Origin: the human T2T-CHM13v2.0 reference genome, Homo sapiens
NCBI RefSeq assembly: GCF_009914755.1
Contig: NC_060934.1
DNA: 64,000 nt
Reading direction: 5' to 3' (one strand)
The translations under genes were made by a program, and so were the position numbers. This document shows, in pieces, positions 3,402 to 24,724 of the stretch. How positions within the stretch are numbered: position 1 is the first letter of the stretch; the number at the start of each line of letters is the position of its first letter. The notes below the pieces were generated by a model that saw only the letters and a list, made by a program, of their open reading frames with translations, ran no database searches and had not been told where the DNA came from.

Positions 3402-4740
3402 TGGGCATTAGCCTTTCCTCTGGTCGTGCCTCTATTTCAGCTTGAGATTTTCACCTTTCATCGCAAGGGTCTTCGCGGCAGAACGTGGCCGTCCCCACAG
3501 CCGTCGGGGGTTTCGGGTTGGATCCCGCGTTCGCTCCGCTGCTTGGCCTGCGCTTCAGCCTCTAGCGACCCAGCGGGGGCGCGACTTCCGAGCCGCCTCC
3601 GCCTCCCGCCTCTACCGCGGGGCCGGGGCGACCCCAGGTCTGCACGGCCGACCGCTGCGTCCAGAGAGATGGGGCCGAGCCTCCCTGCGGAGCAGAACCG
3701 TGGGACGGAGGGCGGTGGGCTCCGCAGGGAGGGGGCGCAGTCCGGGACAGACCCCAGCACAGGCTCCTTCCACCCTCCCGGGACAGCTCCGAAATCCCAG
3801 CCCTACGCCGGAGCTGCGGTTTGCAAAGCGCGGCTGGGCCTTAGGTCTTGCCCCCAGTTTCCTATGCCCTAGGACGTCCCCTTGGGGGCCAGCCACCCCC
3901 AGCCCGCGGAGGGAAGAGGGGCCCTTCCTTCGCGGACCGAGGGCGGCAGCCTGTGTGGGGATACCTGCGCAGGTGCAGCCCCGGTGAGAGCTCCTTACCA
4001 AGAAAGAGGGACATTCATTTCCCTCTCCAAGGTAGCAGCGTTGAAAGGCTTCTCCACAGCATTACTCAGTCCAACTAATGATGGGAAAAGGAGGGAAAAA
4101 CGAGGGCGCCGAGCCGCAACCGCTTGCCTACCTCCACCTAAAACGCAAACACAGCCCGAGTCGCCAGTGACCCTGACTCAGGCGGCCGCGGGCGTTCCCC
4201 ACGGCAGGACCTGGAGCCACACCCGGGCCCTCGGGGCTCCATGGCAGCGCGGCAGCGCCTCCTTCGCGGAGAAGCCCCACTGCCAGGAGAACCACTGCCG
4301 TCGGGAGACGACGTCTGTATTTGTAGGGAGTGAAAGGAGGCGCCGAGTCCCCCACGTTTCATCGCAGGGTCTTCGGGGCAGAATTCGGAGACACCTGTCA
4401 CGATGGGAGCAGTCAGGGCTTTCCTGGTTTTGGGGCCTCTGGCTTAGGTGGGCTGGCAATGCCTCTCCTTTCATTCCTGATAAACATGCTGGGCCGGAGC
4501 ACAGCGGCCATGGGGCTGTTTCTTGTGAGCCACGGCTAGTTCTAAACTGTACTGATTTGGACACCTGCCACCAGATGAGAAATTAGTAAAATGTGGTTAC
4601 CAAGGGACTGCTTCTCTGCTCTAGCTGTGAACGGGGTCCTTAGCGGCCTGCATGCCCGCGCCTCTCCAGACTGAGACCAAAGACTTCCGCGCCACCGTCG
4701 GCAGCTCGCGAACTTAGACTTCAGACCGTCTGCCGCACTG
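3090..4740. promoter_or_regulatory. CpG island / probable promoter
   Basis: Very high GC and CpG density, non-repetitive; ETS cores ACTTCCG at 3584 and 4683; CTCGCGA at 4705; candidate donors CCG|GTGAGA (+, 3984) and GAG|GTAGGC (-, 4131). Confidence 0.8.
3359..3398. repeat. (AC)20 microsatellite
   Basis: Perfect AC run. Confidence 0.97.
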
Positions 4741-5164
4741 CAATAAAGAGACCATGGTGGGGATACCTTTTAAATGATTTAAATGTGTCCTTCCTTCTGC
4801 AGCACACACACGTCCTCCTGAACTGGACACCTGGCCAGGCCAACGAAAAAGGAGAAGCTCTTTTGTAAGGTGGCAGGGACGCACCCCCTTAGCTAGAGAC
4901 AGGCTTCTAGGTGGCTCGCCTTCTACTGGTAGAACATGTAGGGTTATCTGCTAAAGTGTGGGACCTGCTACATTGAAGCCAATCTTCTCTGAGCAGGACT
5001 CAATTTATTTTTTTCTTAATTGCAACACATGAAAATTTTAGGTCACCAAGAAACACTAGTCAAAGGGTTTCATTTTCTGTTTATGGCCTATTTATTACAA
5101 TTCAGAAGAAAAATGACCAACTAGAAAAAAAATATGTAACACGTATCACGGACTGTCAAATGTC

Positions 5165-5372
<208 letters not shown>

Positions 5373-5401: not shown

Positions 5402-6757
5402 TGGAGACGGGGTTTCGCTGTGTTGGCCGGGCTGGTCTCCAGCTCCTAACTGCGAGTGATCTGCCAGCCTCGGCCTCCCAAGGTGCGGGGATTGCAGATG
5501 GAGTCTCGTTCACTCAGTGCTCAATGTTGCCCAAGCTGGAGTGCAGTGGCATGATCTCGGCTAGCTACAACCTCCACCTCCCAGCCACCTGCCTTGGCCT
5601 CCCAAAGTGCCGAGATTGCAGCCTCTGCCCTGCCGCCACCCCGTCTGGGAAGTGAGGAGCATCTCTGCCTGGCCGCCCATCGTCTGGGATGTGAGGAGCC
5701 CCTCTGCCCGGCTGCCCAGTCTGGGAAGTGAGGAGCGCCTCTTCCCGGGCGCCATCCCAACTAGGAAGTGAGGAGCGTCTCTGCCTGGCCGCCCATCGTC
5801 TGAGATGTAGGGAGCGCCTCTGCCCCATCTGGGATGTGAGGAGCGCCTCTGCCCGGCTGCGACCCCGTCTGGGAGGTGAGGAGTGTCTCTGCCCAGCAGC
5901 CCCGTCTGAGAAGCGAGGAGCCCCTCGGCCTAGCAGCCGCCCCATCTGAGAAGTGAGGAGCCCCTCCGCCCGGCAGCTGCCCCATCTGAGAAGTGAGGAG
6001 CGTCTCCGCCTGGCAGCCGCCCCGTCCGGGAGGGAGGTGGGGGGCAGACCCCTCCCGGCCAGCCTCCCGGTCCAGGAGGGAGGGGGGGGGCAGCCCCCTC
6101 CCGGCCAGCCTCCCCGTCCGGGAGGGAGTTGGGGGCCAGCCCCTGCCCGGCCAGCCGCCCTGTCCGGGAGGGAGGTGGGGGGCGCCTCTGCCCGGCTGCC
6201 CCTTCTGGGAAGTGAGGAGCCCCTCTGCCCGGCCGCCACCCTGTCTGGGAGGTGTACCCAACAGCTCATTGAGAACGGGCCATGATGATGATGGTGGTTT
6301 TGTGGAATAGAAAAGGGGGAAATGTGGGAAAAGATAGGGAAATCAGATTGTTGCTGTGTCTGTGTAGAAAGAAGTAGACATAGGAGACTCCATTTTGTTC
6401 TGTACTAAGAAAGATTCTTCTGCCTTGGGATGCTGTTGATCTATGACCTTGCTCCCAACCCTGTGCTCTCTGAAACATGTGCTGTGTCAACTCAGGGTTA
6501 AATGGATTAAGGGCAGTGCAAGATGTGCTTTGTTAAACAGATGCTTGAAGGCAGCATGCTCGTTAAGAGTCATCACCACTCCCTAATCTCAAGTACCCAG
6601 GGACACAAACACTGCAGAAGGCCGCAGGGTCCTCTGCCTAGGAAAACCAGAGACCTTTGTTCACTTATCTGCTGACCTTCCCTCCACTATTGTCCTATGA
6701 CCCTGCCAAATCCCCTTCTGGGAGAAACACCCAAGAATGATCAATTAAAAAAAAAAA
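5402..6757 (+). mobile_element. 5'-truncated SVA retrotransposon (older, SVA_B/C-like)
   Basis: Antisense Alu-like part, GC-rich VNTR (~5630-6250), SINE-R (~6250-6745), ATTAAA + poly(A); TSD AAGAAAACTTGG at 5390-5401 and 6758-6769; no CCCTCT hexamer head. Confidence 0.96.
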
Positions 6758-9445: not shown

Positions 9446-10041
9446 AAAACTAGCACACTTAATAAAAATACAACCAAGGACCCTCACAGAGTCCAGGCGC
9501 TGGTATCCACAGCTGAGAGACCTAAAGACGGATCACATCACAGGACTCTTTGCAGACACTCCTCAGTACCAGCCCAGAGGCTGGTAGCTCTTCTGGGTGG
9601 CTAGATCTAGAAGAGAAATACCAATCACTGCAATTTGGCTCTCAGGAAGTCCTATTCCAAGGGTGTGGGGGAGAGCACCACATCAAGGGAGAACCCTGTG
9701 GGACAAAGGAATCTAAACAGCAGCCCTTGAGTCCCAGATCTTCCCTCTGACATAGCCCACACAAATGAGAAGGAACTAGAAAAACAATTCTGGTAATACA
9801 ACAAAACAATGTTCTTTAACACCCTCAAAAAATCACGCTAACTTACCAGCAATGGATCCAAACCAAAATGAAATCCCTGAACTGCCAGAAAAAGAATTCA
9901 GAAGGTCAATTGTTAAGCTAATCAAGGAGGCACCAGAGAAAGGTGAAGTCCTACTTAAAGAAATTTTAAAAAATGATATAGGATATGTGATAAACATCAT
10001 AAAAAATGATATAGGATATATCATATAAGATATAGGATATA

Positions 10042-10323
10042 TGACAGGTTTTCCTTCATACGTTACCTGATACTTTTGCCTCATAACTCTTAAGATTCTT
10101 TCCTTCATCTTGACTAGATAATGTGATGAATATGTGCCAAGGTAATGATCTTTTTGTGATGAATTTCCAAGGTTTTCTTTGAGCTTCTTGTATTTGGATG
10201 TCTAGGTCTCTAGAAAGGCCAGGGAAGTTTTCCTTGATTATTCCCTCAAATATGTTTTTTAAACTTTTAGATTTCTTTTCTTCCTCAGGAATATCAATTA
10301 TTCTTATATTTTGTCACTTAACA
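10042..10323 (-). pseudogene. Inverted internal fragment of L1 ORF1
   Basis: Minus-strand translation includes KERILRVMRQKYQVTYEGKP (ORF1p C-terminal half), opposite to the rest of the element. Confidence 0.85.
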
Positions 10324-13748
<3,425 letters not shown>

Positions 13749-14297
13749 TTTTTTGTTTTTTTTTTTTTTTGTCTTTTAACAGCCAACAGTTTATTGTACA
13801 CTAGTCTTGAGCAGCTTCAATCTGAATTCATCTCCCCAGGACAGGAAGAAGTCAGGAGATCTCGGGGAGACAGAGCTTATATCCTTTCTTATTCAGAACT
13901 GCCACAACCCCTATCCCTCACCAGTCAGGCCCCACATCACACCAGTGGCCCAGCTGGAATTCTAACATCAGCTAATTCCTTTATATTCTTGTCGTTCTTG
14001 ACATTGCCAGAAAACGTAATCTCTCATGCTTTCCAATCCCAATAGTGTTTTCTCTGGGCCTCCTAACCCCCCTCTCTGTCCACAAATCTCCTTTTCAGTT
14101 GCAACCCCCATCCAATTTTAAACAACTTCCACATTTTCAATACTGAGGTTAATCATTAATTGAGCTGTAATGGGTATGTGTTGTCTACTAAGTGTTTTGG
14201 AAAGTCACTTTGACACTTATCTAATATTATAGGCATGCACTCATCCTTCCCATGACCCTTTTCCTTCCACATACTTTAGAATGTTCTTCCTTGATAG

Positions 14298-14880
14298 GAA
14301 TGTAAGCTCTATGAGGGCATGTGTTTTTGTTTTATTCACTAATGTGGATCAAGTAACCATAGCAGCGCCTCTCGTATAGTAGGTATTCAATAAATAAGCA
14401 TTGAATAAATGAATTTAATGAGCATACATTCAGCAAATATATGGTTATATGACAATATGACAATGAATGAGTAAAATAATATTTTCCCTTATGGAGTTTA
14501 CATTCTAATGTGTAAATGCCGGAAGCCTATGACAAACAGACAATAAGCATGTAAACAGATATAATTCCATACTCTCATTAATCTATGGGGAAAATAAATC
14601 ACATTAGGGAAATAGAGAATGACTGGTAGAAAGAATTTTGGTTATTTTAGATAGACTGGTTAAGACAATTCTCCTTGGGGAGGCAAATCTGGGCAGAATA
14701 CTGATGTGAGGCAAAATGAAGATTTTGGACATAAAAAGACTTGGGAATAGGCAGGAGTAATAAACAGAGAATATAAAGATCTTGATATGGCAAAATGTTT
14801 TATGCATTTGAGAGAAAGAGTGGTTGGAGATAATGTTAGGGAGATGAGGAAAGGCCATGTTGTACAGGTCTTACAGGTTA
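14298..14880. mobile_element. L2 fragments (tail-to-tail) within transduced DNA
   Basis: GAATGTAAGCTCTATGAGGGCA..TAGTAGGTATTCAATAAATA..TTGAATAAATGAAT (L2 3' end) followed by antisense L2-like sequence. Confidence 0.65.
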
Positions 14881-14887
14881 CCTATAC

Positions 14888-15233
14888 CTGGGGGTCCCTA
14901 ACCCCTGGGCCTTGGACGGATACCAGTACCGGTCTGTGGCATATTAAAAACTGGGTGGCACAGCAGGAGGTGAGCAGCGGGCTAGCGAGCATTACCTCCT
15001 GAGCTCCGCCTCCTGTCAGATCAGTGGTGGCATTAGATTCTCATAGGACAGGAACCCTATTGTGAACTGCTCATGCAAGGGATCTAGGTTGCACTCTCCT
15101 TATGATAATCTAATGCCTGATGATCTGAGGTGGAACAGTTTAATCCCCAAACTATCCCCACACTGTCCCTTCCCACAGAAAAATTGTCTTCCTTGAAACC
15201 AGTCCCTGGGGCCAAAAATATTAGGGACCACTG
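14888..15233. mobile_element. MER1B hAT MITE within transduced DNA
   Basis: GAGCTCCGCCTCCTGTCAGATCAGTGGTGGCATTAGATTCTCATAGG; TIR-like ends; degenerate 8-bp TSD ACCTATAC/ATCTATAG. Confidence 0.85.
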
Positions 15234-16009
15234 ATCTATAGGATTTTCATTTTATTTAAATGTGATGTGAAAGCATGGGAAAGTTTGGAAAAGTCTCATG
15301 ATCTTATTTAGGATGATAAAATCATGAATTAAAAAGCTACTTGGTGGAGAGAGAAAGCAAAGAGACCAGCAAGGAGGCTATTGTAGCATCAAGTGACAAA
15401 TGATGGTGGATTGAGCCAGAATGGTGGCAGTGGAGTGGAATCAGGTTCTGGATATTCTTTGAAGATGGATTTGATATGGTAAGGGAAGGAGAGGAATTAA
15501 GAATAGGTCCTAGATTCCTCAGCTGAGCTGGGAAAATCCATTTTACTATTAGTGTTTCCTCAGGAAGAGAATGAGCTAATACATTTGGGGAAAATATTAT
15601 CACTTCCTGAAAACTGAAAAGAAAATGATCATTTTTTAAAAATCTATTGTATCCTTTGTTTTCTCTTAACGTTCTTTTGTCTCCCAGCCTTTTATTTTGA
15701 AAAATGTTAACTTCAATAAGAATTTGAAAAAAATAGTACAACCATATACCCTTTACCTACGTTCACTAATTATTAACATTTTGCTACATTTGCTTTCTCT
15801 GTCTTTTCACATATACACACAAACACACACAGTTTTTCTCTGAAATATTTGAAAGTATGTTGCAGACATCATGAAACTGCACTGCTAGTATTTTGGTATA
15901 TATTTACACATATTTACTGAGAACAAGAAGATTTTCTTATAGAAATACAAGACCAGAGAAATTTTACATAGCTACAGTGCTTTTTTTAAAAATTTATCTC
16001 CCACTATCT

Positions 16010-16487
16010 CTTTATTTATTTATTTATTTATTTATTATTATACTTTAAGTTTTAGGGTATATGTGCACAATGTGCAGGTTAGTTACATATGTATACATGT
16101 GCCATGCTGGTGCGCTGCACCCACTAACTCGTCATCTAGCATTAGGTATATCTCCCAATGCTATCCCTCCCCCCTCCCCCCACCCCACAACAGTCCCCAG
16201 AGCGTGATGTTCCCCTTCCAGTGTCCATGTGTTCTCATTGTTCAATTCCCACTTATGAGAGAGAATATGCGATGTTTGGTTTTTTGTTCTTGTGATAGTT
16301 TACTGAGAATGATGATTTCCAATTTCATCCATGTCCTTACAAAGGACATGAACTCATCATTTTTTATGGCTGCATAGTATTCCATGGTGTATATGTGCCA
16401 CATTTTCTTAATCCAGTCTATCATTGTTGGGCATTTGGGTTGGTTCCAAGTCTTTGCTATTGTGAATAATGCCGCAATAAACATACG
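16010..16487 (-). mobile_element. 5'-truncated young L1 (L1PA2-like)
   Basis: CACCCACTAACTCGTCATCTAGCATTAGGTATATCTCCCAATGC (GAG-type 3'UTR); ORF2 C-terminus RMFIAALFTIAKTWNQPKCP..SLISGN; (TAAA)n tail. Confidence 0.92.
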
Positions 16488-17381
16488 ACACATGCATGTT
16501 TATAGCAGTATAATTTGCAATTACAAAACATGGAACCAGCTCAAATGTCCATCAATCAATGAGTGGATAAAGAAAATGTGGTATATATGTATATATACCA
16601 TGGAATACGACTCAGCCATAAAAAGGAACAAAATAATGGCATTCGCAACAACCTGGATGGAGTTGGAGACCATTATCATAAGTGAAGTAACTCAGGAATG
16701 GAAAACCAAACATCATATATTCTCACTCATAAGTGGGAGCTAAGCTATGAGGATGCAAAGGCATAAGAATGATACAATGGACTTTGGAGATCAAGGAAAA
16801 GGGTGGTGGGGGTGGGGGATAAAACTCTACACACTGGGTACAGTGTACACTGCCCGGGTGATGGGTGCACCAAAATTTTAGAAATCACCACTAAAGAACT
16901 TATTCATGTACAATAAATAAATAAATAAAAATTAACAGGGGGAAAATTGGTACATGGAATGTCAGGGGGCCTTAGGCAACGCTGCCCTGGGGCAGAACCC
17001 CCTGCTCTCCCACCAAGACACAGTGCCCTCCCCAACCCTATCAAGCAGCTGGCCCTGAAGGAACAGTGTACACCTGAGGGGCCCAGGCAGGAGGCTGGAG
17101 CTTAGGGCATAGGAGAGGAGCCAAGAGGTTGTGAAGACAGAGTAGCTGCAGGGGAGGTGCAGACTCCACCACCTAAAGGGTGCCTGCAGGGGCCTGAGAG
17201 CCAAGACCAAGGCTCTGCACCATGGGGTGGCCTCCTGCATCTCCCGCCATGTGGACTCTGCACAGGTTGGATTATATCCCTTGAACCTGAAGAGCCGCCT
17301 TAACATTTTTTGGGATTCCATGTTTGTGCTGACAACACCACCCCTTCCTTCCACAACACTGGGCATGGTGCCCAACTTGGA

Positions 17382-22254: not shown

Positions 22255-22944
22255 ATTAATTACAAATGAAAAAATAGAAAATATCAGCAAAAAGTAGAAG
22301 TTACAAATTTGTTGGGTTAAATTACATTAATAGATTTTATGATGTAGAACCATCATTTATTTTATTGTAAAAATACAATAAAATAAATTAAAAACTTGCT
22401 GGATGAGCTCAATGGTAGAATGGAAGTGACAAAGCATAAAATCTGTGAATATGAGAACAGATCAATAGCACTTGCTCATCATGTGAATAACATCATTAAG
22501 AATAACAGAAAAAAAATCATCTGAAAAAAATGAACAGAGCCTCAGGGACCTTGTTAGAGTAAAAAAAAAAATCTGACTTCCATACTATCAGAGCCTAATA
22601 AGAAGAGAAGAAAGAGTTGAAAGAATATTTGAAGAAATAATTCCCATTTTGATGAAAGATATAAATCTACAGATTCAAGAAACTATGATAATCACAAACA
22701 AGATAAACCCAAAGAAATCCATACCAAGACACATCATCATTAACTTAATAAAACTAAAGACAAAAAAAATTGAAAACAGCCAGAAGAAATGACATCTTAA
22801 CCTACAAGTGTCATTTGAATAAGAGTGGATTTCTTATTTGAAACCATGGATGATAAATATCTTATAAAACATAAAGTAGAACATATTTTACATAGACTAT
22901 AGTCTCTTATAAAAATAAAATATAAAAGAAAAATCTCTTTGCAC

Positions 22945-23769: not shown

Positions 23770-24724
23770 TAATCACATCATATTTCTCCTTCAATTTATT
23801 GGGTTAAGTTACATTAATAGATTTTATGATGTAGAACCATCCTTACATTCTTGCAATAAACTGTATTAGTTGTGAATTGGTGGATTCGACTAATATTTCA
23901 TTCAGGTTTATAAATAAAATGTCTGTAATTATCACTTCTGATGTTGTTCTTAACTGGTTTTGGAATCAAAACAATGTTCACTTTTTAGAATGAACTTGAA
24001 GACGTTATCTCTTTTGGTATATTTTGGAACAACTTGCTTAACTTGAACATTTGTATATAATTTGAAAATTTTGTAAAATTTACCTTCAAAACCATTTTGG
24101 CCTGGGGTTGTTTGTTTGAGGGGTTGACGGAAGGCAGAGCTTGGACTATTACAACTGTATTAATGTTTCCTGGTTTACCTGTTCCAATTTTTTTCTTCTT
24201 ATGCAGTTTTGGTTTTCTATATTTTTATAAGATTTTATTCATTGAATTGAGGGCTTCAATTTTTCATTTACAATAAAATTCTCCTTTACAATTTTTAAAA
24301 ATCTCCACTGTGTTTGCAGTTATTATCTCTTTTTGTTCTGTATTTCCTCTCATAGTTTACTTTTATGATCATCTTTTTTCCTTGGTGAGTCTTGTGAGAT
24401 GTGTCTGTCTTGTTAATTTTTTCAATGACTTTATTTCTGCCTTCGTTAATCTTCTCCATTGTTTTGATTGATGTGTGCCCTGATGGTTATTATCTCCTTT
24501 TGTGTGGTTTTTTTTTTTTTTTGGTTTTACTTTGTTGCTCTTATTCCAACTCTTGAGTTGAATGCTAGTTTGTTTTTAAAAATTGTATTTTCTGAAAAAT
24601 GGTCTTAAAGCTATAATTCTCCTTCTAACAATTGCTTTATTGGCAGTCTGTGTTTTTATTATCATTTAGTTTTAAATATTCCGCAACTTCCTTTTAAATC
24701 CAAGAGTGATTTTGTAAAATGCTA

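What the first reader, a model, noticed from the sequence alone, without database searches (positions are those of the whole stretch)
16240..16745. L1 truncated exactly at the homologous position of its host L1: homology-guided truncation or micro twin-priming
Seen: the incoming L1PA2 ends at ..AATAAACATACG (sense CGTATGTTTATTGCGG), and the host resumes at the same ORF2 position in the opposite orientation (GCATGTTTATAGCAG). Both strands therefore encode the same ORF2 C-terminus (KTWNQ.KCP..SLISG), forming a ~250-bp, almost spacer-less imperfect palindrome centred near 16488. The junction GACACATGCA (16487-16496) also matches the L1 consensus (recalled as AAAGACACATGCACACGTATG) just upstream of the truncation. 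It can be read as a 13-bp TSD with one CpG transition, or as a perfect 8-bp TSD GCATGTTT plus a ~10-nt twin-priming inversion. Inference: the second target-strand 3' end was complementary to the L1 RNA and set the truncation point.
Basis: partly seen in the sequence, partly recalled or inferred. Interest (0 to 1): 0.7.

Follow-up and report, generated by a model that had tools for sequence, protein, structure and literature searches.

The report
L1 insertion ends at matching position
A young human LINE-1 retrotransposon copy inserted backwards into an older LINE-1 and ends inside the 13 bases of its target that match its own RNA; four more such cases turned up elsewhere in the genome, so pairing between the cut target DNA and the RNA likely stopped the copying, a possible clue to why most LINE-1 copies are cut short.

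Summary
Observation largely confirmed, anatomy corrected. The insertion spans 13749-16488 (minus strand) inside an older plus-strand L1. It consists of a poly(A) tail, a 2.2-kb 3' transduction traced to chr2 (98.4% identical), a 23-nt spacer and a 452-nt young L1PA 3' end from a different L1. A 13-bp target-site duplication (TSD) with one CpG transition flanks it, plus one extra base. The L1 5' end lies inside the TSD's own L1 coordinates (chance about 1%). Micro twin-priming is the weaker reading. Partial genome test: of 16 other antisense L1-in-L1 insertions that reached the homologous coordinate, 1 stopped inside it and 15 ran through. Five head-to-head scans gave 3 more verified cases inside the interval and 1 outside (null share 0.13-0.23; p 0.008-0.04; 0.002-0.085 under other bookkeeping). 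The three prespecified sites gave none inside. Homology-guided truncation is therefore suggestive, not proven, and affects a minority of events. Best mechanism (inferred): the second-strand overhang pairs with L1 RNA and ends reverse transcription, an abortive twin priming. I did not find it in print in seven searches.

The parts
10351..13748 (+). Host L1 (L1PB-like, name recalled), ORF2 region up to the first-strand nick
   Evidence: 72% identical to the chr2 L1PA over 3.4 kb; sequence
13736..13748 (+). Left TSD copy, 13 bp, CpG intact; equals L1 reference positions 5558-5570
13749..13770 (-). Poly(A) tail of the insertion
13771..15984 (-). 3' transduction from contig C2:156,715,607-156,717,816; ends 19 nt after a polyadenylation signal
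   Evidence: 35 substitutions in 2,210 aligned bases; only other full-length hit in the genome
15981..16010 (-). Seven-A run plus 23-nt spacer of unknown origin joining the transduction to the L1 tail; endonuclease-like site with a 4-base microhomology
   Evidence: 26-mer found only here at up to 2 mismatches
16011..16487 (-). Young L1PA 3' end with A-rich tail, 5'-truncated at L1 reference position 5562
   Evidence: 95-96% identical to young L1PA copies; 22/452 differences from the chr2 L1; 22/22 junction match
16488..16488 (.). One extra junction base (or part of a micro-inversion under the rival reading)
16489..16501 (+). Right TSD copy, 13 bp, CpG transition at 16493; its minus strand is the predicted second-strand overhang complementary to L1 RNA
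   Evidence: best-scoring site in the whole L1 reference
16502..16931 (+). Host L1 3' remainder (ORF2 end, 3' UTR, A-rich tail); right arm of the imperfect palindrome

Best explanation
A young L1 inserted antisense into an older L1 and ends inside the 13-base target duplication's own L1 coordinates, likely because the second-strand overhang paired with the matching stretch of L1 RNA and so ended reverse transcription. Shown: host L1 split by a 13-bp TSD, poly(A) tail, chr2 transduction, L1 5' end 9 nt into the homologous interval, and the same geometry at four other loci. Inferred: the staggered second nick frees a 13-19-nt 3' overhang that is antisense to the L1 RNA only when the target is an L1 hit in antisense. 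It anneals at the homologous coordinate. The first reverse transcriptase is blocked after 8-10 nt of displacement, or the RNA is cut in the hybrid by an RNase H. The cDNA end is then joined almost blunt to the TSD. This is twin priming aborted before the second primer extends. It applies to a minority of such insertions (1 of 16 that reached the site; 95% CI 0.2-30%). The right TSD copy later lost its CpG.
For: The overhang's best site in 6 kb of L1 is the homologous one for this locus and for all 4 replicates. Replicates with matched left junctions: C2:169.54M (end 5089 in 5080-5098), C8:109.24M (5090 in 5080-5098), C6:170.55M (5338 in 5331-5345), C6:38.39M (about 5343 in 5330-5345; old, TSD 13/16). 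C2 was found from its poly(A) side, blind to the 5' end. Head-to-head scans gave 3 of 4 new L1-in-L1 hits inside the interval against a null share of 0.131 (p 0.008), or 0.232 with a 2x hotspot (p 0.041). The cDNA overlap with the interval is 9, 10, 9, 8 and 3 nt. General L1 ends near 5080-5098 are only 1.6x denser than their flanks (40 of 86 rows, read by eye). TSD-end pairing with L1 RNA does prime 11-nt inversions at L051 and L046.
Against: 15 of 16 insertions that reached the homologous coordinate ran through it, including one at the identical host site with a 14-bp matching TSD; 1 of 16 alone is not significant (p 0.14-0.20). The three prespecified scans gave 0 inside and 1 outside. Site 5098 was chosen after the C2 case was seen. 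Counting both hits with unmatched left junctions as outside gives 3 of 5 (p 0.018-0.085). No twin-primed inversion starting at the homologous coordinate was seen in 16, although a paired overhang should prime. Site weights in the null are rough. Breakpoint peaks along L1 exist regardless of target (PMC12016303). No step of the mechanism was observed.
Confidence: 0.45

Rival explanations
1. Coincidence. Ordinary end-joined 5' truncations fall in the interval about 1% of the time, somewhat more where L1 has general break-prone positions, and the scan picked out the striking cases.
For: 15 of 16 pass through. Prespecified sites gave 0 inside. General ends are 1.6x denser at 5080-5098 (p 0.03). 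An RNA hairpin is predicted with its loop at this locus's end point. Three unrelated L1 junctions fall at 5557-5591 (L046, L051, L054).
Against: 3 of 4 new head-to-head hits lie inside although only 13-23% of the scanned area does. Two different host sites each gave two cases. Spacer-less inverted repeats should, if anything, be lost faster (established knowledge).
Confidence: 0.27
2. Homology acts through DNA, not RNA. Once the cDNA passes the homologous nick position, its 3' end is complementary to the single-stranded TSD copy on its own primer strand; after about 8-10 nt it snaps back onto it and leaves the RNA.
For: Overlap counted from the nick side is tight (8, 9, 9, 10 nt in the four younger loci), tighter than from the TSD start (4, 7, 9, 10). 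It would explain why no homologous twin-primed inversions were seen in 16.
Against: A snapped-back end should sometimes extend into the host 5' flank; no such templated piece is present in the 5 junctions. The cDNA end is normally held in the RNA hybrid (inference).
Confidence: 0.17
3. Micro twin-priming at this locus: an 8-bp TSD whose end primed on 3 RNA bases and copied about 7 nt before joining the first cDNA.
For: The exact 10-nt match at 16487-16496 explains 16488 and 16493 with no later mutation. Real 11-nt micro-inversions exist at this L1 coordinate (L051, L046).
Against: Other insertions at this host site have TSDs of about 11-22 bp (5 Alu events read by eye and 1 L1). TSDs of 9 bp or less are much rarer in inverted L1s, and 14.6% of truncated L1s carry extra bases (PMC2912911). 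Inverted pieces have a median of 292-751 bp (PMC12016303). CpG differs at 5 of 16 sites. 0 of 4 replicates have an inverted piece.
Confidence: 0.08
4. The insertion was longer, and the spacer of the inverted repeat was deleted afterwards.
For: Inverted repeats are deletion-prone (established knowledge).
Against: All five right-hand TSD copies keep normal lengths of 13-20 bp. A deletion would have no reason to stop at the TSD edge and would tighten the palindrome.
Confidence: 0.03

Closest known systems
Twin priming of L1 (Ostertag and Kazazian 2001; not held, known through PMC2837659 and PMC2912911 passages)
   Same: The second-strand 3' overhang anneals to an internal site of the L1 RNA before first-strand synthesis is complete.
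   Different: Pairing is 11-18 of 13-20 nt at the homologous coordinate instead of a 2-5-nt microhomology, and the product has no inverted 5' segment.
Microhomology or end-joined 5' truncation (PMC10760644, PMC4245944, PMC2912911)
   Same: TSD, poly(A), near-blunt 5' junction with 0-1 extra base.
   Different: In that model the target pairs with the cDNA. Here target and cDNA ends have the same sense and cannot pair; the complement is the RNA. The cause of truncation is described as unclear in PMC10760644.
L1 3' transduction and template-switch chimeras (PMC12350158, PMC13174262)
   Same: Downstream flank of a full-length L1 copied up to a polyadenylation site; two parts in the same orientation within one TSD.
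   Different: The attached L1 piece is not from the source L1, and 2.39 kb of source flank is missing. A second insertion into the first one's poly(A) tail fits equally well.
Insertion hotspots inside older elements (PMC2836564)
   Same: The host site is hit repeatedly: 7 Alu events and 2 L1 among 30 loci fetched, plus 2 more L1.
   Different: The passages read concern where elements insert, not where the incoming copy ends.

Membership tests
TPRT 5'-truncated L1 insertion | TSD of about 10-20 bp | tested here: met
   13 bp, one CpG transition
TPRT 5'-truncated L1 insertion | Poly(A) tail at the first-strand nick and an endonuclease-type T-run/A site | tested here: met
   Tail 13749-13770; three T then A at the nick; the site is reused by other insertions
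L1 3' transduction | Unique segment mapping downstream of a full-length L1 and ending after a polyadenylation signal | tested here: met
   C2 source 98.4% identical, 6,024-nt L1 2.39 kb upstream, end 19 nt after the signal
Partnered 3' transduction | L1 part and flank are collinear copies of one source | tested here: not met
   22/452 versus 35/2210 differences (Fisher p 9e-5); 2.39 kb missing; foreign spacer
Template-switch chimera | Both parts inserted in one event (same orientation, one TSD, same age) | tested here: inconclusive
   Orientation and single outer TSD fit. The L1 part has 8 private changes against about 3 non-CpG expected (Poisson p 0.04 for 7 or more), a mild lean to two steps. 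A second TSD made of A would be invisible.
Twin-primed (5'-inverted) L1 | Inverted L1 segment between the TSD and the non-inverted part | tested here: inconclusive
   Only a 10-nt match that overlaps the TSD and is explained by CpG decay plus one base
Twin-primed (5'-inverted) L1 | TSD longer than 9 bp, as is usual for inverted L1s | tested here: not met
   That reading needs 8 bp; PMC2912911 Table 5
Twin-primed (5'-inverted) L1 | Ancestral state of the junction in orthologous filled alleles | not testable with these tools
   No primate genomes other than the window's own are held

The most novel reading that the evidence does not exclude
L1 has a homology-guided truncation route. When the target's second-strand overhang is antisense to the incoming RNA, as in antisense L1-in-L1 insertion, it works like a built-in antisense oligonucleotide and ends reverse transcription at the homologous coordinate about ten times more often than chance. 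This leaves spacer-less L1 palindromes across primate genomes and shows that the second nick can precede the end of first-strand synthesis.
Probability: 0.45. Interest if true: 0.72.

Novelty: new variant of a known kind. Interest (0 to 1): 0.55.

Why it matters
The cause of L1 5' truncation is described as unclear, and twin priming as lacking experimental validation (PMC10760644). Antisense L1-in-L1 insertions are a natural experiment in which the target overhang has a long, known match to the RNA. An excess of ends at that coordinate would show that target-RNA pairing can end reverse transcription and that the second nick can come early. It is testable at once from RepeatMasker annotation and in vitro TPRT. 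The locus itself has no annotated gene and no known function.

Tried and rejected
(1) A TSD next to the L1 tail at 16010: none; the partner copy is at 13736. (2) The chr2 L1 as source of the L1 piece: rejected. (3) Source of the 23-nt spacer: not found in the genome at up to 2 mismatches, nor in the chr2 region held. (4) Splicing across the missing 2.39 kb: does not yield the spacer (by eye). (5) Palindrome scan at this host site with gap up to 30: 9 loci, only this one is L1-in-L1. The others were a local deletion, fold-backs or were not classified; with gap up to 134 there were 0 hits. (6) Rows dropped before counting. Left-junction set: L056 (host not L1); L062, L063, C4, C9 and B1 (not directly in L1); the C11:58.03M row (judged from the row, not fetched); C5 and B4 (ambiguous). 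L055 and L057 are duplicates of L058 and L074. Head-to-head set: C5:162.1M (identical 34-nt arms), C23:49.6M (arms share variants, not fetched), C11:122.6M (local inversion), C7:127.0M (complex, not fetched), C4:17.29M (left junction unmatched). C4:106.35M also had an unmatched left junction but was kept as the outside case. Control scan: 5 internal deletions and 2 palindromes dropped from 93. (7) Five further planned site scans were not run. (8) Earlier findings were not available; the original twin-priming paper is not held.

Full report
1. Anatomy. The window shows an older L1 on the + strand (72% identical to a young L1 over 10351-13751), interrupted after 13748 and resuming at 16489. The two copies of a 13-bp TSD (13736-13748 and 16489-16501) differ only by C versus T at a CpG. 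Between them, on the minus strand, lie a poly(A) tail (13749-13770), 2.2 kb of non-L1 DNA, a seven-A run with a 23-nt spacer, and a young L1PA 3' end (16011-16487), followed by one extra base at 16488. The head-to-head L1 arms are 188/260 identical. Subfamily names are from pairwise identity and recall.

2. Origin of the insert. The 2.2-kb part has one other full-length match in the genome, on contig C2: 35 substitutions in 2,210 bases, ending 19 nt after a polyadenylation signal. A 6,024-nt L1 lies 2.39 kb upstream there and served as my coordinate reference. The window's L1 piece is not its copy: 22/452 differences against 35/2210 (p 9e-5), with the intervening 2.39 kb absent and a spacer found nowhere else. 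The insert is composite: either a template switch, or an orphan transduction that landed in the tail of an earlier L1 insertion. Eight private changes in the L1 piece lean mildly to two steps. Either way, the 5' junction belongs to the L1 piece. A divergence of 1.6% suggests roughly 6-10 million years (inference from recalled ape divergences).

3. The junction. In reference coordinates the TSD is 5558-5570 and the incoming L1 ends at 5562 with one extra base. The minus strand of the TSD, the predicted second-strand 3' overhang, has its best match in the whole L1 at exactly this place (12.5 of 13, next best 10). From 11 ends in 14,835 nt of comparable insertions, the chance of ending within 13 nt is about 1%. 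The micro-inversion reading rests on a real 10-nt match. It needs an 8-bp TSD, while other insertions at this site have about 11-22 bp (read by eye). Such short TSDs are much rarer in inverted L1s, and 14.6% of truncated L1s have extra bases (PMC2912911, passages). CpG differed at 5 of 16 sites in the transduction pair. I judge it the weaker reading. It is not excluded, because two L1s in unique DNA carry genuine 11-nt micro-inversions at the same L1 coordinate (L051, L046).

4. Test A, insertions found from the poly(A) side. Searches gave 27 independent direct antisense L1-in-L1 insertions besides this one; dropped rows are listed under Tried and rejected. Of the 98 matches, 30 were fetched. 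Eleven insertions ended before the homologous coordinate. Sixteen reached it: 15 ran through with continuous antisense sequence, one of them at the same host site as ours (C7:31.62M, TSD 14 bp), and 1 stopped inside its TSD interval (C2:169.54M). That is 1 of 16 (95% CI 0.2-30%) against 1-1.4% expected per event, p 0.14-0.20. Two twin-primed inserts inverted elsewhere (L072; C23:143.6M).

5. Test B, head-to-head scans with gaps up to 134 nt at five host sites. Site 5098 (chosen after the C2 case; 3 loci) gave C2 again, a new case on C8 and one fold-back. Site 5345 (chosen as the commonest site; 3 loci) gave two cases on C6 and one locus with an unmatched left junction. The three prespecified scans gave: 5401/5430, 2 loci, one ending outside its interval and one fold-back; 5570/5596, none; 4769, 2 loci, neither countable. 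The left junctions of C8:109.24M, C6:170.55M and C6:38.39M show host, tail and matching TSD. Their ends lie at 5090, 5338 and about 5343, inside 5080-5098, 5331-5345 and 5330-5345, with 0-1 extra base and no inverted piece. With rough site weights, 13% of the scanned area is inside: 3 of 4 gives p 0.008, and p 0.041 with a twofold general hotspot. Combined with test A, p is 0.011 or 0.069. Other bookkeeping gives 0.002-0.085.

6. Control for a general hotspot. One search listed 93 L1 breaks near 5053-5106 in any target. Of 86 kept, read by eye, 17 fell in 5099-5106, 40 in 5080-5098 and 29 in 5053-5079. That is 1.6-fold over the flanks (p 0.03), partly a detection bias against the lowest bin. 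No such control was run for 5345 or 5570. At 5570 the RNA is predicted to form a hairpin with its loop at our end point, so a local hotspot there remains possible. PMC12016303 (sections 8 and 10 and passages) reports breakpoint peaks along L1.

7. Mechanism (inferred). In TPRT the second nick falls about 15 bp from the first (PMC4245944, part 3 of 5), and the overhang can anneal to L1 RNA, as in twin priming (PMC2837659, passages). For an antisense hit in L1 the overhang matches the RNA over 11-18 of 13-20 nt, backed by hundreds of bases of weaker homology. The five cDNAs end 9, 10, 9, 8 and 3 nt into the interval. I favour a roadblock or an RNase H cut in that hybrid (0.45); RNase H2 is known to act on L1 hybrids (PMC10760644, passages). 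Snap-back of the cDNA onto the primer-strand TSD (0.17) fits the tight overlap and the lack of homologous inversions. Coincidence holds 0.27, micro twin-priming 0.08 and later deletion 0.03.

8. Literature. Seven searches (listings and abstract starts seen) and passages of PMC2836564, PMC13174262, PMC12350158 and bioRxiv 10.1101/2024.12.14.628481 showed no analysis of truncation at the host-homologous coordinate. Most subscription papers, the original twin-priming paper and all supplements were not seen, so this is not proof of novelty.

9. Verdict. The feature is real and is a composite TPRT insertion. New variant of a known kind; interest 0.55.

Noticed in passing
window 13771-16487; L011 4138-9217: The insertion is composite: a chr2 orphan-type transduction joined through an A run and a 23-nt spacer of unknown source to an L1 end from another element.
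   Followed up: partly
L051 1486-1560 (C18:30.43M) and L046 1487-1600 (C3:200.79M): Young L1s in unique DNA whose TSD end primed an 11-nt inversion at L1 5564-5575, followed by a fold-back copy of 22-65 nt of flank: twin priming and hairpin copying in one junction.
   Followed up: partly
L1 reference 5528-5592 (L011 about 4104-4168): Predicted RNA hairpin (-16.3 kcal/mol in 80 nt) at the ORF2 end; several unrelated junctions (L046, L051, L054, L072) fall in or at it.
   Followed up: partly
L1 reference about 5345, 5098, 5570, 5401: Repeated antisense insertion sites in L1: 6 of 16 direct events at about 5345; 7 Alu events at 5570 among 30 loci.
   Followed up: partly
L074 (C23:76.64M) 1631-2020: A 110-nt L1 3' end fused to a near full Alu inside one TSD, an Alu/L1 chimera of the kind in PMC13174262.
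   Followed up: no
window about 9480-10320: The host L1's 5' part appears rearranged: a sense ORF1-like piece, a short tandem repeat near 9956-10044, then a T-rich antisense-looking stretch before ORF2 resumes (by eye).
   Followed up: no
window 22306-22357 and 23793-23844: A 52-nt direct repeat, 94% identical, 1,487 nt apart.
   Followed up: no
L020-L022 (C7:44.1M, 103.8M, 103.9M): One Alu-in-L1 insertion present in three paralogous copies.
   Followed up: no
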